Shown here piece after piece: positions 7,198 through 63,721 of a stretch of DNA of 64,000 bases; positions within the stretch are counted from its first letter, which is position 1, and every line of letters starts with the position of its first letter. Below the pieces are notes generated by a model. The model ran no database searches. It saw nothing but the letters and a program-made list of their open reading frames with translations, and had not been told where the DNA came from. This stretch comes from a virus (taxonomy: Duplodnaviria > Heunggongvirae > Uroviricota > Caudoviricetes): the IMG/VR virus record IMGVR_UViG_648028025_000005. One strand, written 5' to 3'. A program made the position numbers and the translations under genes.

Positions 7198-8088
7198 TCA
7201 GGCTGCCAGATCATCGTTTCCGATGGAAGCATAATAAGCTTTTTCTGCTTCTGCCGGAGGAGTATGGCCCAGCCTTCCCAGCAATCGTCGATTGTTATAC
7301 CAGTCCACCCACGTTAGTGTGGCCAGTTCCACTTCTGCACGGTTTTTCCAGCTCTTACGGTGTATTACCTCCGCTTTGTAAAGACCATTGATGCTCTCAG
7401 CCATCGCGTTGTCATACGAGTCGCCTGTACTCCCTGTTGATGCCAGTAATCCGGCTTCTTTTAGTCGCTCCGTATAGGCCAGTGACACATACTGAGAGCC
7501 TTTATCGCTGTGATGGATGGTGCCAGACGGACGACGGGCCCACAACGCCTGCTCCAGCGCATCCAGCACGAATGTCGTTTCCATAGACGATGAGACCCGC
7601 CACCCCACGATGTATCCGGCAAACACATCAATGATAAACGCCACATAGACGAAGCCCTGCCATGTGCTGACGTAAGTAAAATCAGCCACCCACAGCTGGT
7701 CAGGTCGTTCTGCCACGAACTGACGGTTTACGCGGTCGCCTGCGGCAACGGCTTTCCGGCTGATGGTCGTACGGACCTTTTTACCCCGGAGAACACCGGC
7801 AAGTCCCATAACCGCCATGAGACGTGCCACTGTACATCTGGCCACCCTGATTCCTTCCCGTAACAACTGACGCCAGACTTTACGCACACCGTACACCTGA
7901 TGATTTTCATCGTATACGCGCTGTATCTCTCTCTTCAGCCAGTCGTCGTGCTGCGCACGGGCACTGCGTTTATCCGGATGATGTCGCTGTTGCTGACAAT
8001 GGTAATACGTTGACGGGGCAATATGCAGTTCGCTGCATACCGGTCCGACCCCGTACTGCTCACGCAGCTTATCCAGCAGTGGCATCAT
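7198..8088 (-). CDS. IS629 transposase OrfB (DDE catalytic domain)
   Basis: 296 aa, recognised IS3-family OrfB sequence ([16 protein letters not shown]...). Confidence 0.9.
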
Positions 8089-8411
8089 TTTTTCCAGAGG
8101 CGGTCGAACTCCGCCTTCGCAAAATAAGCGGAAGCCTGGCGAAGGATATCGTTACTGCGGCGCAGTTCACGATTTTCACGTTCCAGCTCTTTCAGACGCT
8201 GACGTTCAGCGCTGGTGAGCCCACCATCACCGCCCCCGGTATCCCGCTCATGCTGGCGAACCCAGACACGCAGGGTCTCCGGCGTACAGCCAATCTTTGG
8301 GGCAATGGAACAAATTGCCGCCCACTGTGAGTCATATTCATCCTGACTTTCCAGAACCATACGAATCGCCCGCTGACGGACTTCGGGGGAAAAACGAGTA
8401 TTTTTAGTCAT
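8085..8411 (-). CDS. IS629 transposase OrfA
   Basis: 108 aa HTH protein [19 protein letters not shown]...; overlaps orfB start at A-rich run (GGAAAAAATGATG). Confidence 0.9.
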
Positions 8412-9499
8412 CCTGTTTACCTCTTTCTCAGGGAGTTTAGTCTCCAGGATTTCCGGGGCGGTTCATATACTTTTAGTGTGCTTTGATTCTGATATATCAT
8501 CTTTAATTATCTTGATGATTCTTTCATTCTGCCATAGAAGTGATGGTGCAGATATATAATAATAGTTAAAGCATGAATTATTTTTTAAGCAATCAAGCAC
8601 AAAAATAGCACCTAGCGAGTGCCCCCATATACCGATTCTGGAACTGTTCGGAGCAATAGTACTAACCCATGGCATGATCTGAGTTAGTAATAATTCTCGG
8701 AAAGACTGGCTTCCTCCACCAGTAAAGTAGATCCATGCTGGTTTAGAGTTATCAACAATAGCATTTTCACCATCAGGAGTATAATCGTAAGCACGGCGAT
8801 GAATGCTAAGGTTATTCCAAGATTCATAACCAAGTGTAACTAACACTGGTGGATTGGGTAGTGCATCAATAACAGGCAGAATATCAGAAATGTAATTGTT
8901 GGCACTATTCCCATCAAGTATATAAAGAGTTGCATTATTTTTTTTAATGTTTTTTGGAGTAAAAATACATATTTTATATTTGGTGTCATGGTTAATTGAG
9001 TTAAATATGCGTGTTTGACAATGAATGTCCATATGTTTAGTCATGCGTTCTCCCCATGAGCATTAAAGGATGCTTAAGATATGCTATGTCACTGATAAAA
9101 AATTTGTTGTGTGTGTTTAGTTATTTTATCTACCTCCATTATGATTTAAGACTGATATATGTTATCAGCAAAGGTACATCGTTATTATTTTACCTGTCAA
9201 TACATTTGATATTGATTATCGTTTACATCGCTTGCTTAGGAAATTGAAGGCAGGTAACTATCATGTCAATGAACTAACCCACAGTCTAACGTACTTCTTT
9301 CCCCAATCACCAACAACCAAATTCCTGTTATCACCACTGGGATTTTGGCGCAACTTCATGGTGCAGAGGTAAATAGCATCAAGCAAAATCTCTTTTTCCG
9401 TTGTTGTCCTTATGGGACGTCTGTCTTTCTGACCGATTTCATATTGGCGAGGTAATGGGAAGTTAAGTAGAATAGCTGCGGGTGCTTGAGGCTATCTGC

Positions 9500-9648
9500 C
9501 TCGGGCATGAACACCAACGGCAGATAGAGAAAAGCCCCAGTTAACATTACGCGTCCTGCAAGACGCTTAACATTAATCTGAGGCTCAATCTATGAACGGC
9601 AAATCTAGGTTAGCCTCTTACGTGCCGAAAGGCAAGGAGAAGCAGGCT
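9500..9648. promoter_or_regulatory. hok leader region; expected location of mok start and antisense sok RNA
   Basis: by analogy with hok/sok loci only; in-frame upstream extension of hok ORF begins at 9592; no sok promoter mapped. Confidence 0.3.
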
Positions 9649-9804
9649 ATGAAGCAGCAAAAGGCGATGTTAATCGCCCTGATCGTCATCTGTTTAACCG
9701 TCATAGTGACGGCACTGGTAACGAGGAAAGACCTCTGCGAGGTACGAATCCGAACCGGCCAGACGGAGGTCGCTGTCTTCACAGCTTACGAACCTGAGGA
9801 GTAA
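9649..9804 (+). CDS. hok: Hok/Gef-family type I toxin (HokD/RelF-like, 51 aa)
   Basis: MKQQKAMLIALIVICLTVIVTALVTRKDLCEVRIRTGQTEVAVFTAYEPEE; single transmembrane helix; followed by terminator. Confidence 0.85.
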   Translation: MKQQKAMLIALIVICLTVIVTALVTRKDLCEVRIRTGQTEVAVFTAYEPEE

Positions 9805-11313: not shown

Positions 11314-11685
11314 ATGCGTATAGAGTTTGTTTTGCCTTACCCGCCGACGGTGAACACCTACTGGCGACGTCGTGGCAGCACATATTTTGTATCAAAAGCC
11401 GGTGAGCGTTATCGCCGGGCTGTGGCGCTTATTGTTCGCCAGCAGCGGCTGAAATTAAGCCTGTCCGGACGGCTGGCAATAAAAATTATTGCAGAACCAC
11501 CGGATAAGCGCCGCCGTGACCTGGACAACATTCTGAAAGCACCGCTGGATGCGCTGACGCATGCGGAAGTGCTCATTGATGACGAGCAGTTTGATGAAAT
11601 CAATATTGTGCGCGGTCAGCCTGTGCCAGGTGGACGGCTGGGCGTGAAGATTTACGAAATCAGAGGTGGTAACGATGGCGCGTGA
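11314..11685 (+). CDS. rusA: Holliday junction resolvase RusA
   Basis: 123 aa; RusA signature [15 protein letters not shown]...[13 protein letters not shown]. Confidence 0.9.
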
Positions 11686-12046
11686 TATCCAGATGGTTCT
11701 TGAGCGATGGGGGGCATGGGCAGCAAATAATCATGAAGATGTAACATGGCCCTCGATAGCTGCTGGTTTTAAAGGATTAATCCCGACTAAAGTGAAATCA
11801 CGTCCTCAGTGTTCTGATGATGACGCCATGATAATTTGTGGTTGTATGGCACGATTAAACAAGAATAATCAGTATTTGCACGATTTGTTGGTGGATTATT
11901 ACGTAGGTGGAATGACATTTATGGCTCTTGCACGTAAGCATAGATGTTCTGATGGGCTTATTGGTAAAAGGCTTTATAAAGCGGAAGGTATTATTGAAGG
12001 AATGCTTATGGCTCTGAATGTCCGGTTAGATATGGATATGCGGTAG
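11675..12046 (+). CDS. Q: late-gene antiterminator Q (phage 82 / QuuD-like)
   Basis: ATG 11675 with GAGGTGG upstream; ~123 aa; position between rusA and late region; Cys-rich segment [17 protein letters not shown]. Confidence 0.75.
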
Positions 12047-12197
12047 GGATATATAGTGATGAGGGTTATGTTTTCTGTGTTTATAATTAACATGTTTATT
12101 TTTTGATGGTCATGTATTGTGGAAGGTAGATAAAATGTTGCCTGGTGAATTGAAAATATTGATAATCAATCTTCATCATTAAATAAAAGGAGTGCTT

Positions 12198-13016
12198 ATG
12201 TGGATTGTGTTAGTACTGTCACTGTCAACTCTCAGTTGGCATAAGGTAGTGGCTTTTTCATTGTTGACGGTGTCTGTTGTCCTGGCTGTGCTTAATGATA
12301 TTATTGATTGGTCGGTGTTATTTTTTGTTGCTACAATCGTTTTTTTTATTATTTTGAAGTTCAACTGGAAATATAACGCCTGGGCTAAATCTATATATGA
12401 AGTTGGCATAGTTTTATCAGCCATAGCATTATCTTTCCATCTATGGCCAGGGTTTCACAATCCTGTAGTGCTAAATTCTGTTACTGTTGGCCCTCAGAGT
12501 ACTCCCTATACAATGTATTTTAATTTTGATAAAGCGCTGGTGCCATTTTTGTTAGTCCTGTGTACATCTTCTTTGTTTAAAAAAGAAGTAAAATCAGAAG
12601 TGTCTTTGTGGAAGTGGGGGGCTCTGTCGCTCTCTGTTCCTCTTATCCTGTTTTTGGCTGTTTTTTTTGGTGGATTAAAGCCAGAGATTCATTTTCCTGA
12701 GTGGTTGCCAGAGTTTATATTGGCTAATTTGTTTTTTGTGTCTCTGGCAGAGGAATCATTATTTAGAGGGTATATTCAATCACGGCTATCAGAAGTAACG
12801 TCTCCATTGGTTGCATTAATTGTGGCGGCTTTGTTGTTTGGTTTTTATCACTATTCAGGTGGTGCTTTACTTGTATTATTTGCCACGTTATCTGGTGTTG
12901 TGTATGGATTGTCATGGATGTGGAGTGGGCGTTTGTGGGTTGCCACCCTTTTCCATTTTGGTTTGAATCTGTGTCACTTGTTATTCTTTACCTATCCATT
13001 TTTAAAACATAATTGA
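12198..13016 (+). CDS. CPBP-family intramembrane metalloprotease (CAAX protease / Abi family)
   Basis: polytopic membrane protein with the three CPBP motifs EESLFRGY, FGFYH, HFGLN; AT-rich moron absent from prophage B. Confidence 0.75.
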   Translation: MWIVLVLSLSTLSWHKVVAFSLLTVSVVLAVLNDIIDWSVLFFVATIVFFIILKFNWKYNAWAKSIYEVGIVLSAIALSFHLWPGFHNPVVLNSVTVGPQSTPYTMYFNFDKALVPFLLVLCTSSLFKKEVKSEVSLWKWGALSLSVPLILFLAVFFGGLKPEIHFPEWLPEFILANLFFVSLAEESLFRGYIQSRLSEVTSPLVALIVAALLFGFYHYSGGALLVLFATLSGVVYGLSWMWSGRLWVATLFHFGLNLCHLLFFTYPFLKHN

Positions 13017-13302
13017 TTTTTTCTATGGTTTTAAATTTATAAGACTGAAAAATAGCAGGACGTGACATTTGCATGAAAAATATGCACGGCAAAGCATTTA
13101 CGTACGTAAAAAATCAGGTATGCTGTTAAGAGTGGTTATTTCGCCGCATAGCTTGACCCCGCCTCTGAGCGGGTTTTTTGTGCCCGCAAAGTAGCGCAGT
13201 GCGTTAAATGTGCTGGTAGTTATTAATACAGGTCTTTCAGCTTGCTGGCTTTTTCGGCAAGAGTTATTGGTGTGTCACGTTAACCGGAAAGGGTAAAAAG
13301 AC

Positions 13303-13500
13303 ATGCTGAAACAGCAGGATATGACAGAAACCGCCAGAGTTGTGTTTGATGAATTAAGCGTCACCGAACCGGCGACAGTCGGGGAGATTGCGCAGAATAC
13401 TTACCTTTCACGCGAACGCTGCCAGTTAATACTGACCCAGCTTGTTATGGCGGGTCTGGCAGACTATCAGTGCGGTTGTTACAGACGCCTTCAGTCCTGA
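13303..13500 (+). CDS. small putative DNA-binding protein upstream of AraC regulator
   Basis: 65 aa; paralog at 61318-61515 in B; followed by hairpin plus T-run. Confidence 0.5.
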   Translation: MLKQQDMTETARVVFDELSVTEPATVGEIAQNTYLSRERCQLILTQLVMAGLADYQCGCYRRLQS

Positions 13501-13637
13501 AGGCTTTTTTATTTGTGGTAAATGGGCGGCTGGTGGGTGTTAGCGGCACCTGTCAGTCCTTTGCTTATGTGTTGATGATAATTTACCTTTTGGGGCTATA
13601 ATTGAACTAACCAATTGCTAATGAAAGTAAAATTATA

Positions 13638-14351
13638 ATGGTTGTTGTCTGTTCAGTTATCATGGTTTGCTCCCCAATTAATATTTTTCTTGAAAAGGAT
13701 ACGTTGTCACTTAAGCCCGGCTCAGTCGTTCTGGCCACCAAATGCATCAGGGCGCTTTTCCTTATGCATTATGGCAAAGTTAAAATTTTCGATATAAACC
13801 ATTCCATAGTAAGTCAATATCTGGAAATTCAGCATAAGCTGACAAGAACTCATCTGACTGACGTTCCGCTTTATCTGTCACTGGAACCCAACAACCCTGC
13901 GTTGGCTGAGGCTTTAATTACCAGCCAGAGATTTTCCGGAGATACCACGGATATGTTTCTTATGATGGCATGCCTGTCGCTGTTTGAATCAGATGAACGG
14001 ATATTATTATTTTTAAGTGGATGTTTATCCAGTATAAGTGCCAAAGTCAGGGCGATAATTCAGACAGATATATCAGCAAGCTGGACGCTTGGTGCGATTG
14101 CGTTACGCCTGCATATGAGTGAGAGTTTGTTAAAGATAAAACTGAAAAATGAAGGGCACATGTTCAGTCGCTTGTTGCTGGAAGAGCGGATGCGTGTTGC
14201 TGTGAATATGTTATGTTCCCGGCATGGATATGGACAGGCTATAGCAGAAAAATGCGGTTATTCAAGCAGGTCCTACTTTATTTCTGTATTTCACCGCTAT
14301 TATGGCTTCCCGCCAGACAGATATGTATCCAGGCAAGGGCTTGATTATTGA
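13638..14351 (+). CDS. AraC-family transcriptional regulator (prophage-borne, YdeO/GadX-like)
   Basis: 237 aa; C-terminal AraC HTH (AIAEKCGYSSRSYFISVFHRYYGFPP); paralog in B at 61650-62363. Confidence 0.8.
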   Translation: MVVVCSVIMVCSPINIFLEKDTLSLKPGSVVLATKCIRALFLMHYGKVKIFDINHSIVSQYLEIQHKLTRTHLTDVPLYLSLEPNNPALAEALITSQRFSGDTTDMFLMMACLSLFESDERILLFLSGCLSSISAKVRAIIQTDISASWTLGAIALRLHMSESLLKIKLKNEGHMFSRLLLEERMRVAVNMLCSRHGYGQAIAEKCGYSSRSYFISVFHRYYGFPPDRYVSRQGLDY

Positions 14352-14379
14352 TTTTCATCTGATTATTATTTTTTGACCC

Positions 14380-14455
14380 GGCCCTTTAGCTCAGTGGTGA
14401 GAGCGAGCGACTCATAATCGCCAGGTCGCTGGTTCAAATCCAGCAAGGGCCACCA
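14380..14455 (+). tRNA. tRNA with CAU anticodon (Ile2/Met type, ileZ-like)
   Basis: 76 nt cloverleaf read by eye; acceptor GGCCCTT/AAGGGCC; anticodon loop CT-CAT-AA; T arm GCTGG-TTCAAAT-CCAGC; CCA encoded. Confidence 0.85.
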
Positions 14456-14462
14456 TCACATA

Positions 14463-14539
14463 CCGCCATTAGCTCATCAGGAAAGAGCGCCAGCTTTCGA
14501 AGCTGGTTGCGCGGAGTTCGGGTCCCCGAAGGCGGTCCA
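14463..14539 (+). tRNA. tRNA-Arg(UCG)-like, degenerate copy
   Basis: anticodon loop TT-TCG-AA; relative to canonical B copy (62477-62553) it has an A-A acceptor mismatch, an A-C T-stem mismatch and altered T loop TTCGGGT. Confidence 0.55.
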
Positions 14540-14552
14540 TTATCTGTATCCT

Positions 14553-14629
14553 GCGTTGTTAGCTCAGCCGGACAGAGCAATTGCCTTCTAAGCAATCGGT
14601 CACTGGTTCGAATCCAGTACAACGCGCCA
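14553..14629 (+). tRNA. tRNA-Arg(UCU) (argO-like)
   Basis: 77 nt; acceptor GCGTTGT/ACAACGC; anticodon loop CT-TCT-AA; T arm ACTGG-TTCGAAT-CCAGT; CCA encoded. Confidence 0.85.
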
Positions 14630-14643
14630 CACTTATTTTCCCT

Positions 14644-14669
14644 GGCTCGCTTTTGCGGGCCTTTTTTTT
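14644..14669 (+). terminator. rho-independent terminator after tRNA cluster
   Basis: hairpin GGCTCGC-TTTTG-CGGGCC followed by TTTTTTTT. Confidence 0.5.
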
Positions 14670-14734
14670 AAATGTCTCACAATTCAGGCGGTTGACTGTT
14701 GTCTGGTTTGCGGGGAGTTTGTTAAAAGAAACTG

Positions 14735-14842
14735 GCATGGTGAATCCCCCTGTGCGGAGGGGCAATCAGCGAGTAGGTATATGGGATAATCGCGGATTCA
14801 GGTGCTGGTACTGAATTCACCGGGAGGCACCCGGCACCATGC
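14735..14842. promoter_or_regulatory. conserved ~105-bp non-coding element upstream of nanS-p (copy A)
   Basis: ~90% identical copy at 63442-63549; contains hairpin CCCCCTGTGCGGAGGGG; A copy followed by hairpins at ~14868-14920. Confidence 0.35.
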
Positions 14843-15118
14843 AATGGCACATAGCGCCACTCTCCAGCCCCTCTCCGGAGGGGCTTTCTTATGGACAAAA
14901 AAAGCCCGCGCAGGGAGACGCGGGCGGCAAGGAATAAACAACAAAACGTGAAGTAATATTTCAGCTGGCGAATAATATCCGACAGTAATCACTCTGCGCA
15001 ATAGCGCGGCCTTTTTCGTATTGCGGGCTGTTGTCTCTCTTCTGCCATTGTCCTGTAACTTCCGGACTTCAGCCCGCTCCTCATTTTACTCACAATATTA
15101 TCCCGGCCGGGAGGATTC

Positions 15119-60177: not shown

Positions 60178-60537
60178 ATGCTCATAGATTTGGTTTTACC
60201 TTACCCGCCGACGGTGAACACTTACTGGCGACGCCGTGGCAGCACATATTTTATCTCGGAGGAGGGAAAGCGTTATCGCCGGGCTGTGGCGCTTATTGTT
60301 CGCCAGCAGCGGCTGAAATTAAGCCTGTCCGGAAGGCTGGCGATAAAGGTGATTGCAGAGCCACCGGATAAGCGCCGCCGTGACCTGGACAACATTCTGA
60401 AAGCACCGCTGGATGCGCTGACGCATGCGGAAGTGCTCATTGATGACGAGCAGTTTGATGAAATCAATATTGTGCGCGGTCAGCCAGTATCTGGTGGACG
60501 GCTGGGTGTGAAGATTTACAAAATTGAGAGTGAGTGA
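60178..60537 (+). CDS. rusA: Holliday junction resolvase RusA
   Basis: 119 aa; paralog of 11314-11685. Confidence 0.9.
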   Translation: MLIDLVLPYPPTVNTYWRRRGSTYFISEEGKRYRRAVALIVRQQRLKLSLSGRLAIKVIAEPPDKRRRDLDNILKAPLDALTHAEVLIDDEQFDEINIVRGQPVSGGRLGVKIYKIESE

Positions 60538-61076
60538 GCGTAAATATGATATATCCGGAAATTACAGGCAAAAGCGGCGAACATTTACGCCTGAACACGC
60601 TGGAAGCAGTCTGGATCCAGGGGAAATTACGGATGTGGGGGCGGTGGTCGTATATCGGTGGGGGTAAATCCGGAAATATGTTTAACCGGTTACTGGTTTC
60701 GAAAAAGCTGACGAAAACAGCAGTTAATGAGGTTTTACGCAGCATGAAGAAATCCGGGCTGGAAAAACCGGAACTTGAGGCATTTTTTCGGGATATGACC
60801 AGAGGGAAGCAGAAGAGCTGGTTGTCACATTGTACAGACACAGAGGCGTTGATTATTGATCGCGTTATCAGTGAGGTGCTTGGGGAATATCCCGGGCTAA
60901 TCAATATTCTCCGGCAAAGGTACGAAGGACGGGGAATGAGTAAGAGAAAAATGGCAGAATGTTTAAATCGTACTCACCCGGAATGGTGTTTCAGCACATG
61001 TGAGAAACGTATTGCAGGTTGGTTAGCCGTGGCTGAACACATGCTTTATGTACCTATGCACGATTCATTTCGATAA
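60534..61076 (+). CDS. putative late antiterminator Q (positional call; unrelated in sequence to Q of prophage A)
   Basis: 180-aa ORF overlapping rusA stop, in the Q position; no family motif confirmed. Confidence 0.45.
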   Translation: MSVNMIYPEITGKSGEHLRLNTLEAVWIQGKLRMWGRWSYIGGGKSGNMFNRLLVSKKLTKTAVNEVLRSMKKSGLEKPELEAFFRDMTRGKQKSWLSHCTDTEALIIDRVISEVLGEYPGLINILRQRYEGRGMSKRKMAECLNRTHPEWCFSTCEKRIAGWLAVAEHMLYVPMHDSFR

Positions 61077-61317
61077 AAAAAGCTTGCTTTTTTACGCAGA
61101 AACAGCTTGAATTCCTGTAAGCTTCGCAAAGCTGTATCGCGAGGCGAAATGCAAGTTTTTTCGCACAAGGAAGCCACCGGAAGGTGGTTTTTTTGTGTCC
61201 GTAATATACAGCAGCGCAATAAATTCGCTGGTGGTTATTAATACCGTTCTTTCAGCTTGCTGGCTTTTTCGACAAGAGTTATTGGTGTGTCACGTTAACC
61301 GAAAAAGGGAAAAAGAC

Positions 61318-61515
61318 ATGCTGAAACAGCAGGATATGACCGAAACCGCCAGAGTGGTGTTTAATGAATTAAGCGTTACCGAACCGGCGACAGTCGGGGA
61401 GGTTGCGCAGAATACTTACCTTTCACGCGAACGCTGCCAGTTAATACTGACCCAGCTTGTTATGGCGGGTCTGGCAGACTATCAGTGCGGTTGTTACAGA
61501 CGCCTTCAGTCCTGA
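61318..61515 (+). CDS. small putative DNA-binding protein upstream of AraC regulator
   Basis: paralog of 13303-13500. Confidence 0.5.
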   Translation: MLKQQDMTETARVVFNELSVTEPATVGEVAQNTYLSRERCQLILTQLVMAGLADYQCGCYRRLQS

Positions 61516-61649
61516 AGGCTTTTTATTTGTGGTGAATGGGCGGCTGGTGGGGGGGCGACACCTGTCAGTCCTTTGCTTATGTGTTGATGATAATTTACCT
61601 TTTGGGGCTATAATTGAGCTAACCAATTGCTAATGAAAGTAAAATTATA

Positions 61650-62363
61650 ATGGCTGTTGTCTGTTCAGTTATCATGGTTTGCTCCCCAATTAATATTTTT
61701 CTTGAAAAGGATACGTTGTCACTTAAGCCAGGCTCAGTCGTTCTGGCCACCAAATGCATCAGGGAGCTTTTCCTTATGCATTATGGCAAAGTTAAAATTG
61801 TCGATATAAGCGAATCCGTCGTAAGTCAATATCTGGAAAGTCAGCATAAGCTGACGAGGACTCGTCTGACTGACATTCCGCTTTACCTGTTGCTGGAACC
61901 CAACAATCCTGCGTTGGCTGCGGCTTTAATTACCAGCCAGGGATTTTCCGGAGAGGCCACGGATATGTTTCTTATGATGGCCTGCCTGTCTCTGTTTGAA
62001 ACAGATGAACGGATGTCATTGTTTTTAAGTGGATGTTTATCCAGCATAAGTGCCAAAGTCAGGGCGATAATTCAGACAGATATATCAGCAAGCTGGACGC
62101 TTGGTGCGATTGCTCTACAGTTGCATATGAGTGAGAGTTTGTTAAAGACAAAACTGAAAAATGAAGGGGGCATGTTCAGTCGCTTGTTGCTGGAAGAGCG
62201 GATGCGTGTTGCTGTAAATATGTTATGTTCCCGGCATGGATATGGACAGGCTATAGCAGAAAAATGCGGTTATTCAAGCAGGTCCTACTTTATTTCTGTA
62301 TTTCACCGCTATTATGGCTTCCCGCCAGACAGATATGTATCCAGGCAAGGGCTTGATTATTGA
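61650..62363 (+). CDS. AraC-family transcriptional regulator (prophage-borne)
   Basis: 237 aa; paralog of 13638-14351. Confidence 0.8.
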   Translation: MAVVCSVIMVCSPINIFLEKDTLSLKPGSVVLATKCIRELFLMHYGKVKIVDISESVVSQYLESQHKLTRTRLTDIPLYLLLEPNNPALAAALITSQGFSGEATDMFLMMACLSLFETDERMSLFLSGCLSSISAKVRAIIQTDISASWTLGAIALQLHMSESLLKTKLKNEGGMFSRLLLEERMRVAVNMLCSRHGYGQAIAEKCGYSSRSYFISVFHRYYGFPPDRYVSRQGLDY

Positions 62364-62391
62364 TTTTCATCTGATTATTATTTTTTGGCTC

Positions 62392-62467
62392 GGCCCTTTA
62401 GCTCAGTGGTGAGAGCGAGCGACTCATAATCGCCAGGTCGCTGGTTCAAATCCAGCAAGGGCCACCA
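62392..62467 (+). tRNA. tRNA with CAU anticodon (Ile2/Met type)
   Basis: identical in sequence to 14380-14455. Confidence 0.85.
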
Positions 62468-62476
62468 TATCACATA

Positions 62477-62553
62477 CCGCCATTAGCTCATCGGGACAGA
62501 GCGCCAGCCTTCGAAGCTGGCTGCGCGGGGTTCAAGTCCCCGATGGCGGTCCA
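62477..62553 (+). tRNA. tRNA-Arg(UCG), canonical copy
   Basis: acceptor CCGCCAT/ATGGCGG fully paired; anticodon loop CT-TCG-AA; T arm CGGGG-TTCAAGT-CCCCG. Confidence 0.8.
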
Positions 62554-62566
62554 TTATCAGCATCAT

Positions 62567-62643
62567 GCGTTGTTAGCTCAGTCGGACAGAGCAATTGCCT
62601 TCTAAGCAATCGGTCAGTGGTTCGACTCCACTACAACGCGCCA
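62567..62643 (+). tRNA. tRNA-Arg(UCU)
   Basis: anticodon loop CT-TCT-AA; T arm AGTGG-TTCGACT-CCACT. Confidence 0.85.
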
Positions 62644-62680: not shown

Positions 62681-62812
62681 GTATCTGCGCCACGCCCGGC
62701 GCATATCAACCACAGAGCCTTTCGGGGGTGAGCTTACGGAGTGGTCAGTGTGACTTTCTCTGTGGGCAGATCGCTCCCGGGCGTTGGCTCACCCACCCAA
62801 AGGAACGTCACG

Positions 62813-63244
62813 ATGTTTGGAATCTTCAAAAAGAAAACCCGCAGAGCGGCAGCGGAAATTAAAAAGTTTGAGAAACGCGATCTGGCACAGGCGGTGATTA
62901 ACGCTGCATACCTGGTGGCCTATGCAGATGGTGAATGCGAGGCATCCGAGAAAGCGAAGATCGAACAGGTCTTACGTAATCAGCCTGCGTTGTCTGCGTT
63001 TACCTCGGAAATTAATGCGATTAGCGCAACTATTATCGGTCAGCTGGATACCAATTTTAAAATTGGTCGTCGTGCCGCGTTACGCGAGATTGAGGATGTG
63101 AAACACGATACGCGTGAAGCGGAAGATGTGCTGGATGTGGCGGTGGCCATTGCGGAGGCAGACGGCGAAATTGAGCCGGAAGAGCGCAAGGTGCTGGAAG
63201 AGATTGCCGGTGTTCTGGGTCTTCGTCTGGAGAATCACCTGTGA
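62813..63244 (+). CDS. TerB-family protein (tellurite-resistance TerB-like fold)
   Basis: 143 aa from ATG 62813; two TerB-like repeats with acidic loops (AAYLVAYADGECEASEKAKI and VAVAIAEADGEIEPEERKVL). Confidence 0.6.
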   Translation: MFGIFKKKTRRAAAEIKKFEKRDLAQAVINAAYLVAYADGECEASEKAKIEQVLRNQPALSAFTSEINAISATIIGQLDTNFKIGRRAALREIEDVKHDTREAEDVLDVAVAIAEADGEIEPEERKVLEEIAGVLGLRLENHL

Positions 63245-63408: not shown

Positions 63409-63441
63409 TTTTTTTGTTTGCTGTTTATTAAAAACACTTCT

Positions 63442-63549
63442 GCATGGTGAATCCCCCTGTGCGGAGGGGCGATCAGCAACCAGGTATATGGGATAATCGC
63501 GGATTCAGGTGCTGATACTGAATTCACCGGGAGGCACCCGGCACCATGC
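63442..63549. promoter_or_regulatory. conserved ~105-bp non-coding element upstream of nanS-p (copy B)
   Basis: ~90% identical to 14735-14842. Confidence 0.35.
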
Positions 63550-63721
63550 TTTGCCACAAAAGTGTTGTTTCTGTTTTTCTCAAACTATCATCGTTATCCC
63601 TTTATTTCCGGCTGCGCATGGCGTGGCCTTTTTTTACGACCAGCCACTGGCAGATGGCCATCCTGTAATTTGATTCCGGTTCCGGCTTTTTAACTCTGTT
63701 CCTGTACACGGGAGAAATTCG

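What the first reader, a model, noticed from the sequence alone, without database searches (positions are those of the whole stretch)
13303..14351. Conserved small-ORF plus AraC-regulator pair embedded in the late region of both prophages
A 65-aa ORF and a 237-aa AraC-family regulator are conserved between A and B, immediately upstream of the tRNA cluster and downstream of Q. They would be expressed from late, Q-antiterminated transcripts and could regulate host loci such as acid-resistance or secretion genes, as described for prophage-borne AraC regulators in EHEC.
Basis: partly seen in the sequence, partly recalled or inferred. Interest (0 to 1): 0.5.

Follow-up and report, generated by a model that had tools for sequence, protein, structure and literature searches.

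The report
Known prophage Psr acid/secretion regulators
The two AraC-type genes are near-identical copies of PsrA and PsrB, prophage regulators of acid resistance and type III secretion in pathogenic E. coli, while the small gene upstream is an unrelated phage backbone gene that normally precedes a DNA methylase.

Summary
A 65-aa ORF (13303-13500; copy B 61318-61515) and a 237-aa AraC/XylS gene (13638-14351; copy B 61650-62363) lie between Q and the ileZ-argN-argO tRNAs in both prophages.

**The AraC genes are known Psr regulators.**
- Copy A is 99% identical to Sakai ECs_1087 (psrA).
- Copy B is 99% identical to the second EDL933 copy, which sits in a psrB-type context.

**Each psr gene sits in a ~790-bp low-GC cassette.** The cassette carries its own promoter-like site with an invariant TATAAT. 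It lies downstream of three hairpins, so expression in lysogens need not depend on Q.

**The small ORF is a real protein but not a Psr partner.**
- It is under purifying selection (dN/dS 0.04-0.2) and looks like a winged helix.
- In 19 of 21 other Enterobacterales species and in many phages it precedes an M.EcoGII-type adenine methylase, never psr.
- psr replaced that methylase in a fixed slot.
- The small ORF is frameshifted in Sakai Sp4, next to ECs_1087, the gene a 2026 paper names psrA.

Verdict: already known and of low interest. A conserved hairpin (13519-13568) tied to the small ORF is a minor open lead.

The parts
11666..12046 (+). Antiterminator Q of prophage A
   Evidence: Pfam Phage_antitermQ, E 4.9e-52. 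RefSeq annotation of the identical O26 locus calls it 'antiterminator Q family protein'.
13158..13179 (+). tR'-like intrinsic terminator; left edge of the module shared by A and B
   Evidence: GC hairpin CCCGCC...GGCGGG followed by T6; folds at -14 kcal/mol. A/B homology, and homology to phiP27, SfV and Stx2 phages, begins here.
13303..13500 (+). Small ORF, 65 aa, winged-helix-like (phrog_331; NCBI name 'TrmB family'). A phage backbone gene, not part of the psr cassette.
   Evidence: phrog_331, E 6e-37. dN/dS 0.04-0.2 against close homologues. AF2 model shows an HTH-type helical core, pLDDT 72. It precedes a methylase in other phages and species.
13487..13510 (+). Intrinsic terminator T1, overlapping the small-ORF stop codon
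   Evidence: 7-bp stem plus T6; folding z-score -3.4. Two stem pairs show compensatory changes (UA to CG, GC or GU) across 9 phages.
13519..13568 (+). Conserved long hairpin (T2) with the core ATGGGCGGCTGG; function unknown
   Evidence: 19-pair consensus stem. It is 82% identical to mEp460, where the small ORF is only 58% identical. The 12-mer is present at a fixed distance in 18 of 21 species. No Rfam match.
13574..14362 (+). psr cassette (~790 bp) that replaces the methylase gene of related phages
   Evidence: Left breakpoint from alignment A5; right breakpoint from alignment A8. GC is 40.7% against 49.3% for the adjacent backbone.
13575..13602 (+). Sigma-70 promoter-like site inside the cassette (ATGATA-16-TATAAT); prediction only
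   Evidence: Best-scoring site in the region, 10 of 12 matches. The TATAAT is invariant in all 9 upstream variants across 79 psr loci. The same site occurs in B at 61587-61614.
13638..14351 (+). psrA-type AraC/XylS regulator, 237 aa
   Evidence: HTH_AraC and HTH_18. 99% identical to Sakai ECs_1087 read from the long start. YdeO profile match over the full length.
14380..14629 (+). ileZ-argN-argO tRNA cluster
   Evidence: ARAGORN, Rfam and RefSeq annotation.
14644..14669 (+). Intrinsic terminator after the tRNAs
   Evidence: 7-bp GC stem plus T8; folding z-score -3.9.
60534..61076 (+). Q-like antiterminator of prophage B (DUF1133)
   Evidence: phrog_753 'anti-termination protein Q-like', E 3.8e-74. 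Pfam DUF1133 plus Phage_antitermQ.
61163..61198 (+). Strong tR'-like terminator of prophage B
   Evidence: 16-bp stem, -23.9 kcal/mol, z-score -5.0.
61318..61515 (+). Small ORF, copy B (65 aa)
   Evidence: 97% aa identity to copy A. The 106-aa reading from GTG at 61195 has no counterpart in A.
61650..62363 (+). psrB-type AraC/XylS regulator, 237 aa
   Evidence: 234/237 identical to the EDL933 copy that lies in the same context (DUF968, RusA, DUF1133, small ORF, AraC, tRNA, TerB).
62392..62643 (+). ileZ-argN-argO tRNA cluster, copy B
   Evidence: ARAGORN and Rfam.

Best explanation
The locus is two separate units placed side by side.

**Unit 1: a lambdoid late-operon leader.** It consists of the tR'-like terminator, a 65-aa winged-helix-like protein gene, its terminator T1 and a conserved long hairpin T2. 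In most phages this leader precedes an M.EcoGII-type beta-class adenine methyltransferase.

**Unit 2: a ~790-bp, 41%-GC cassette that has replaced that methylase.** It carries a psr gene and, by prediction, its own sigma-70 promoter. Copy A is the PsrA allele and copy B the PsrB allele.

**Function (from the literature, not tested here).** Psr proteins are YdeO-like AraC/XylS activators. [quoted passage not shown]

**Expression (inferred).** In a lysogen, transcription from pR' stops at tR', T1 and T2, and psr is read from its own promoter. After induction, Q-modified polymerase reads through the whole stretch.

The small ORF is a late phage gene tied to the methylase module, not a Psr co-regulator.
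For: **Identity of the AraC genes.**
- Copy A is 99% identical to Sakai ECs_1087, with the same gene order DUF968, RusA, Q, CPBP, small ORF, AraC, ileZ-argN-argO, esterase.
- Copy B is 99% identical to the second EDL933 copy in a matching context.
- EDL933 has exactly two psr places.
- YdeO is the best NCBIfam profile, 2.6e-30 over residues 1-229; identity to K-12 YdeO is 32%.
- The candidate PatE ortholog ECs_0287 is only 37% identical.

**Cassette.**
- Homology to methylase-bearing phages ends at ~13573 and resumes ~15 nt before ileZ.
- GC is 40.7% against 49.3% for the backbone.
- The promoter-like site is inside the cassette, and its TATAAT is invariant in 79 loci.

**Small ORF is uncoupled from psr.**
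- 55 phage records carry the small ORF; only 1 of them has a close Psr.
- IMG/VR holds at least 589 small-ORF loci against 95 psr loci.
- Among the 80 closest small-ORF loci the downstream gene is psr in 40, the methylase in 33, cut off in 6, and absent (empty slot) in 1.
- In species-representative genomes it is the methylase in 19 of 21 and psr in 0 of 21.
- The small ORF is disrupted in 12 of 80 psr loci, including Sakai Sp4.

**Other support.**
- No promoter-like site was found between tR' and the small ORF.
- Literature on Psr function and on the psrA deletion phenotype: PMC10877973, PMC4456613, PMC13502914.
Against: - The psr promoter is a consensus match only. Its -35 element is weak, and no transcription start data could be read.
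- The 80 IMG/VR psr loci are not independent lineages.
- The small ORF is intact in 68 of 80 psr loci and in both copies here, so some retained function next to psr is not excluded.
- Assigning copy B to 'PsrB (Z2104)' rests on context and on EDL933 having two copies. The RefSeq record used carries new locus tags, so it is not a locus-tag match.
- Papers disagree on the psrA tag: z1789 (OI-50) in PMC10877973, ecs1087 (Sp4) in PMC13502914.
- The primary Psr and PatE papers could not be read.
Confidence: 0.85

Rival explanations
1. The small ORF and the AraC gene form one late operon, transcribed only by Q-modified polymerase, and the small protein acts as a co-regulator of Psr.
For: The two genes are adjacent, on the same strand and downstream of Q in both prophages. 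The small protein looks like a DNA-binding winged helix. All 80 psr loci examined have the small ORF or a remnant of it upstream.
Against: - A terminator with compensatory stem changes, plus a second long hairpin, separate the two genes.
- The small ORF is linked to a methylase in 19 of 21 other species and to psr in none.
- It is frameshifted or deleted in 12 of 80 psr loci, including the Sakai locus of ECs_1087, named psrA in PMC13502914.
- The review states that psrA alone complements the deletion in trans.
- The universal adjacency is explained by one fixed insertion slot.
Confidence: 0.08
2. The retained leader still controls psr. The small winged-helix protein binds the conserved hairpin element (13519-13568), which abuts the -35 region of the psr promoter. 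This would couple psr expression to the prophage late programme.
For: The hairpin element is more conserved than the small ORF itself: 82% against 58% identity to mEp460. It lies at a fixed distance in 18 of 21 species. It is kept in every psr locus aligned, directly upstream of the cassette junction.
Against: There is no evidence of binding. The element could simply be a second terminator, or an RNA element for the lost methylase that was kept because the recombination breakpoint lies beyond it. The small ORF shows no promoter of its own, so it should be silent in lysogens, where Psr phenotypes are reported.
Confidence: 0.1
3. The psr copies here are silent or decaying passengers of defective prophages, with no present function.
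For: Prophage A carries IS elements and looks partly degraded. AT-rich cargo of this kind is commonly silenced by H-NS (general knowledge).
Against: - Both ORFs are full length.
- Among 79 IMG/VR loci, 77 encode 237 aa and 2 encode 235 aa.
- The gene is present in 725 of 5426 complete E. coli genomes, with a median of 2 copies.
- Near-identical alleles have published phenotypes.
Confidence: 0.05

Closest known systems
PsrA (Sakai ECs_1087 in Sp4; given as z1789, OI-50, in EDL933)
   Same: Copy A is 99% identical over 237 aa. The gene order from DUF968 to the esterase gene is the same.
   Different: Three amino-acid differences. In this window the upstream small ORF is intact, whereas in Sakai Sp4 it is frameshifted at codon 49. 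Sakai annotates a shorter 195-aa product.
PsrB (z2104, OI-57 of EDL933)
   Same: Copy B is 234/237 identical to the second EDL933 psr copy. The context is the same: DUF1133 Q-like gene, small ORF, AraC, tRNAs, TerB-domain gene. A and B are 92% identical to each other, close to the published 90% for PsrA vs PsrB.
   Different: Equating it with z2104 is inferred from context, not from a locus tag.
PatE (z0321, OI-8)
   Same: A prophage-borne AraC/XylS activator of gadE and hdeA.
   Different: The candidate ortholog ECs_0287 is only 37% identical. It sits at the end of the defective prophage Sp1, not in the Q-to-tRNA slot.
YdeO (E. coli K-12 b1499)
   Same: Homologous over the full length, including the N-terminus: 32% identity, E 3e-32. 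It is the best NCBIfam profile. Like the Psr proteins, it is an activator of gadE (literature).
   Different: The score is far below the equivalog cut-off (105.9 against 348 bits). YdeO is chromosomal and under EvgA control. Its upstream 65-aa gene safA shows no similarity to the small ORF.
Late-region M.EcoGII-type methylase module of lambdoid phages (phiP27 L23-L24, SfV orf47-orf48, phage 1720a-02)
   Same: These phages share the same terminator, small ORF (92-97% aa), T1 and hairpin upstream of the slot.
   Different: In this window the ~1.06-kb methylase gene and its leader are replaced by the psr cassette.
Lambda 'morons' (bor, lom type cargo genes)
   Same: An extra gene with different base composition and its own predicted promoter, inserted between backbone genes and active in lysogens (literature for activity).
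   Different: There is no strong terminator of its own. The next good terminator follows the tRNAs. The cassette replaces a gene rather than adding one.

Membership tests
AraC/XylS transcription factors | C-terminal double helix-turn-helix DNA-binding domain | tested here: met
   Pfam HTH_AraC 41.4 bits (cut-off 26.6) and HTH_18 39.5 bits (cut-off 33.6), covering residues 155-230.
Psr (prophage-encoded secretion regulator) family | High sequence identity to PsrA or PsrB | tested here: met
   Copy A is 99% identical to ECs_1087. Copy B is 99% identical to the second EDL933 copy.
Psr (prophage-encoded secretion regulator) family | Carried by lambdoid prophages | tested here: met
   Both copies lie between Q and the late and lysis genes of lambdoid prophages. 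All 80 IMG/VR psr loci share the slot between the small ORF and ileZ. Association with effector loci and Pch regulators was not examined in this window; pchA lies in Sakai Sp4.
Psr (prophage-encoded secretion regulator) family | Activates gadE, yhiF and hdeA, and represses LEE secretion | not testable with these tools
   Known only from the literature for near-identical alleles (PMC10877973).
YdeO (NCBIfam NF007407 equivalog) | Score at or above the curated equivalog cut-off | tested here: not met
   105.9 bits against a cut-off of 348. It is a homologue, not an ortholog.
TrmB family (Pfam PF01978), for the small ORF | Score at or above the Pfam gathering threshold | tested here: not met
   17.8 bits against 25.6, E 0.003. 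NCBI nevertheless names the cluster 'TrmB family transcriptional regulator'.
Winged helix-turn-helix fold, for the small ORF | Three-helix HTH core followed by a beta-hairpin wing | tested here: inconclusive
   The AF2 model (pLDDT 72) has helices at 4-18, 26-32 and 37-49, then a helix rather than a wing. The best Foldseek matches are winged-helix proteins (CzrA, OhrR, PefI), but all have E of at least 0.4.
Moron (autonomously expressed prophage cargo) | Own promoter, deviating base composition, insertion between backbone genes | tested here: inconclusive
   Composition and breakpoints fit. The promoter is predicted only, and there is no dedicated terminator.
safA-ydeO type operon (small connector protein plus YdeO) | Upstream small protein homologous to SafA | tested here: not met
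   BLASTP finds no alignment at E up to 100.

The most novel reading that the evidence does not exclude
The 65-aa winged-helix-like protein and the conserved hairpin (core ATGGGCGGCTGG, 13519-13568) may form a dedicated control unit. Its normal job would be to gate the toxic, non-specific M.EcoGII-type methylase of lambdoid phages. In Psr prophages the unit has been kept and might now tie psr expression to the phage late programme.
Probability: 0.1. Interest if true: 0.45.

Novelty: already known. Interest (0 to 1): 0.2.

Why it matters
The AraC genes are alleles of regulators already shown to link prophage carriage to acid resistance and to the timing of type III secretion in EHEC. Finding two of them in tandem prophages of a non-O157 background adds little.

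Two practical points do come out of the work:
- The upstream small ORF should not be treated as part of the psr system.
- The Sakai annotation of psrA appears to lack 42 N-terminal residues that align with YdeO.

There is also a side product. The small ORF, the hairpin and an M.EcoGII-type methylase form a strongly conserved unit across Enterobacterales. This may bear on how such a toxic enzyme is kept silent in lysogens, a question that PMC5778455 leaves open.

Tried and rejected
- **SafA analogy.** K-12 ydeO is preceded by the 65-aa safA gene, but SafA and the small ORF share no similarity.
- **Small ORF as a spurious or non-coding ORF.** Rejected by dN/dS of 0.04-0.2 and by homologues down to 50% identity that keep the same length.
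- **The 106-aa reading in copy B from GTG at 61195.** Rejected because the extension has no counterpart in A.
- **Rfam.** No family matches between 13150 and 13640, even at E up to 1.
- **PADLOC.** Nothing for Psr or the CPBP gene, and only a chance-level match for the small ORF.
- **PDB sequence and fold searches for the small protein.** Only non-significant winged-helix matches.
- **HnrS.** I looked for this 66-nt late-region sRNA, reported to raise psrA expression (PMC13502914). Its sequence is not in the held text. A window-wide RNA duplex scan timed out. A k-mer search against the hha ribosome-binding region found no convincing site near either psr locus.
- **Primary papers.** The PsrB and PatE papers (PMC4288888, PMC3416394) are not held, and the Tree et al. 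2011 paper was not among the results of the search for it. Functional statements therefore rest on reviews.
- **A second TATAAT overlapping the start codon (13634-13639).** It has no usable -35 element and was not flagged by the scan.

Full report
**1. Observation**

The small ORF is 13303-13500 (65 aa) and the AraC-type ORF is 13638-14351 (237 aa). The second copies are at 61318-61515 and 61650-62363.

The AraC proteins are 92% identical and the small proteins 97% identical. The DNA of the two prophages becomes alignable at the T-tract of an upstream terminator. It stays at about 94% mean column identity through the three tRNA genes.

The tRNAs are at 14380-14629 and 62392-62643. The first carries a CAT anticodon and is annotated tRNA-Ile (ileZ) in RefSeq.

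Q genes lie upstream in both prophages but are of different types:
- Prophage A has a Phage_antitermQ protein.
- Prophage B has a DUF1133 / Q-like protein.

In A a CPBP/CAAX protease gene sits between Q and the small ORF.

**2. What the AraC genes are**

The C-terminal domain passes the Pfam thresholds for HTH_AraC and HTH_18. The best curated profile is YdeO, aligned over residues 1-229 but far below the equivalog cut-off. Direct comparison with K-12 YdeO gives 32% identity over the whole length, including the first residues.

Copy A matches PsrA:
- The identical DNA occurs in O26, O111, O145 and other STEC genomes.
- Sakai prophage Sp4 has the same gene order: DUF968, RusA, Q, CPBP, small ORF, AraC (ECs_1087), ileZ-argN-argO, esterase.
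- Read from the long start, ECs_1087 is 99% identical to copy A.
- A 2026 paper from the Tree laboratory names ecs1087 in Sp4 as psrA (PMC13502914).

Copy B matches PsrB:
- It is 234/237 identical to the second psr copy of EDL933.
- That copy lies in the same context as prophage B: DUF968, RusA, DUF1133, small ORF, AraC, tRNAs, TerB-domain gene.
- EDL933 holds exactly two copies.
- The review literature describes PsrA (z1789) and PsrB (z2104) as 90% identical.

I therefore read A as the PsrA allele and B as the PsrB allele. The B assignment is by inference rather than by locus tag. The candidate PatE ortholog, ECs_0287 at the end of Sp1, is only 37% identical.

The gene is common. It occurs in 725 of 5426 complete E. 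coli genomes, at 1322 places, with a median of two per genome.

**3. What is published about function**

According to PMC10877973 and PMC4456613:
- PsrA and PsrB increase GadE and YhiF expression and thereby repress LEE type III secretion.
- Deletion of psrA raises secretion and is complemented by psrA in trans.
- PsrB binds the hdeA and gadE promoters and raises acid resistance.
- Six further Psr homologues were found in EHEC, EPEC and NMEC.

PMC13502914 reports that psrA and gadE transcripts respond to the prophage sRNA HnrS. I could not read the primary papers, so these statements rest on secondary sources.

**4. Anatomy: a cassette in a fixed slot**

I aligned the region with the same region of Sakai Sp4, phage phiSTEC1575-Stx2k, phiP27, SfV and Stx2a_1447. 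There is a shared backbone from the tR'-like terminator (13158-13179) through the small ORF and about 70 nt beyond it, up to roughly 13573. Past that point:
- Psr-bearing genomes share one sequence.
- The others share a different one that leads into a 352-aa DNA methylase.

Homology resumes about 15 nt before ileZ. The psr unit is therefore a cassette of about 790 bp (13574-14362). Its GC content is 40.7%, against 49.3% for the adjacent backbone.

The strongest promoter-like site in the region is ATGATA-16-TATAAT at 13575-13602, inside the cassette. Its -10 hexamer is unchanged in all nine upstream sequence variants found in 79 psr loci. Copy B has the same site.

Three hairpins lie upstream of the cassette:
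- tR' (13158-13179).
- T1 (13487-13510), a terminator that overlaps the small-ORF stop codon. It has a folding z-score of -3.4 and compensatory stem changes across phages.
- T2 (13519-13568), a long conserved hairpin.

The scan found no promoter-like site between tR' and the small ORF.

The inference is as follows. In a lysogen psr is read from its own promoter, while the small ORF is reached only by Q-modified polymerase. After induction everything is read through. This fits the published phenotype of psrA deletion in uninduced cultures, but the promoter itself is not demonstrated.

**5. The small ORF**

It is a real protein-coding gene.
- Synonymous changes far outnumber non-synonymous ones. 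SfV against phiP27 shows 19 synonymous and 4 non-synonymous differences, and dN/dS is 0.04-0.2 among close homologues.
- Homologues at about 50% identity in mEp460 and Hafnia phage yong2 keep the same length and N-terminus.
- It belongs to phrog_331, and NCBI names the cluster 'TrmB family'. The Pfam TrmB score is below threshold.
- An AlphaFold model built on a 30-sequence alignment has pLDDT 72 and an HTH-type helical core.
- Fold matches are all winged-helix proteins, but none is significant.

It is not a Psr partner.
- In the phage collection 55 records carry it, and only one of them has a close Psr.
- IMG/VR holds at least 589 small-ORF loci against 95 psr loci.
- In phiP27, SfV, Stx2a_1447, Citrobacter phiNP, mEp460, Hafnia yong2 and 1720a-02, the gene about 150 nt downstream is a PF01555 adenine methylase.
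- Among the 80 closest small-ORF loci the downstream gene is psr in 40, the methylase in 33, cut off in 6, and absent (empty slot) in 1.
- In one genome per species, 19 of 21 loci have the methylase and none has psr. The genera include Escherichia albertii, Salmonella, Kluyvera, Citrobacter, Klebsiella, Enterobacter, Buttiauxella and Proteus.
- Murray et al. describe the 1720a-02 methylase as very similar to M.EcoGII. That enzyme is non-specific, silent in lysogens and harmful when expressed (PMC5778455).

Every one of 80 psr loci has the small ORF or a remnant upstream and ileZ downstream. This is what a single fixed insertion slot predicts. The small ORF is intact in 68 of them, frameshifted to a 79-aa product in 8, and 5'-deleted in 4. 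The frameshifted form is the one in Sakai Sp4, next to ECs_1087, the gene PMC13502914 names psrA. Together with trans-complementation by psrA alone, this argues against a required co-regulator role.

**6. An unexplained element**

The hairpin at 13519-13568 is better conserved than the coding sequence next to it. It is 82% identical to mEp460, where the small ORF is 58% identical. Its core 12-mer ATGGGCGGCTGG sits at a fixed distance after the small ORF in 18 of 21 species.

It has no Rfam match. Its stem varies mostly by GC to GU changes, and only one pair shows a change on both sides. It could be:
- a second terminator,
- a control element for the methylase, or
- a binding site for the small protein.

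This is the basis of the novel reading, which I rate as unlikely but not excluded.

**7. Comparison and verdict**

The AraC genes are members of the known Psr family by sequence and context. They are homologues, not orthologs, of YdeO, and distant relatives of PatE.

The cassette behaves like a lambda moron in composition, placement and predicted autonomy, though it lacks its own terminator.

The idea of a conserved functional pair and of purely Q-dependent expression is not supported.

Novelty: already known. Interest is low. The methylase-leader module is a modest side lead.

Noticed in passing
window 13519-13568 (copy B about 61532-61580): A long hairpin with the core ATGGGCGGCTGG is more conserved across phages than the neighbouring small ORF. 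It is present after the small ORF in 18 of 21 Enterobacterales species and has no Rfam match.
   Followed up: partly
L004 3001-4407, L005 3001-4397, L169 2468-3907, L172-L192: The small winged-helix-like ORF, the hairpin and an M.EcoGII-type beta-class adenine methylase form a conserved three-part unit downstream of Q in lambdoid phages and prophages of many genera. One locus (L141) has the slot empty.
   Followed up: partly
L002 18804-19391 (Sakai ECs_1087): Sakai annotates psrA as 195 aa, starting at an internal Met. The 237-aa reading aligns from residue 1 with YdeO and is the one used by PGAP in other genomes, so the Sakai start is probably 42 codons too short.
   Followed up: partly
L002 18344-18583 (Sakai ECs_1086): The small ORF next to Sakai psrA has a 1-nt deletion that shifts the frame at codon 49 and gives a 79-aa product. 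The same allele occurs in 8 of 80 IMG/VR psr loci.
   Followed up: yes
window 14706-14896 and 63413-63585: Strong Rfam matches to the sRNA family STnc100 (138 and 105 bits) lie just downstream of the tRNA clusters in both prophages, ahead of the esterase gene.
   Followed up: no
window 12192-13016: A low-GC (38%) CPBP/CAAX intramembrane protease gene lies between Q and the tR'-like terminator in prophage A only. It looks like another cargo insertion.
   Followed up: no
window 62741-63244: A TerB-domain ORF (167 aa) lies between the tRNAs and the STnc100-like region in prophage B and in the EDL933 psrB locus. It is absent from prophage A.
   Followed up: no
window 14341-14369 and 62353-62381: A promoter-like site (TTGATT-17-TATTAT) spans the right edge of the psr cassette just before ileZ. 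The -10 part is shared with methylase-bearing phages, while the -35 part is supplied by the cassette.
   Followed up: no
window 48602-48653 (-), 9480-9654 (+), 8014-8130 (-): Rfam matches to DicF, to the sok antitoxin RNA next to hokD, and to an IS3-type ALIL frameshift pseudoknot.
   Followed up: no
L170 4763-4960 (K-12 safA): K-12 ydeO is also preceded by a 65-aa gene (safA). The equal length is a coincidence, since the two small proteins show no similarity.
   Followed up: yes
window 61076-61200: The short stretch between the Q-like gene of prophage B and its very strong terminator could encode a short pR' transcript, like StxS or the reported HnrS sRNA.
   Followed up: partly
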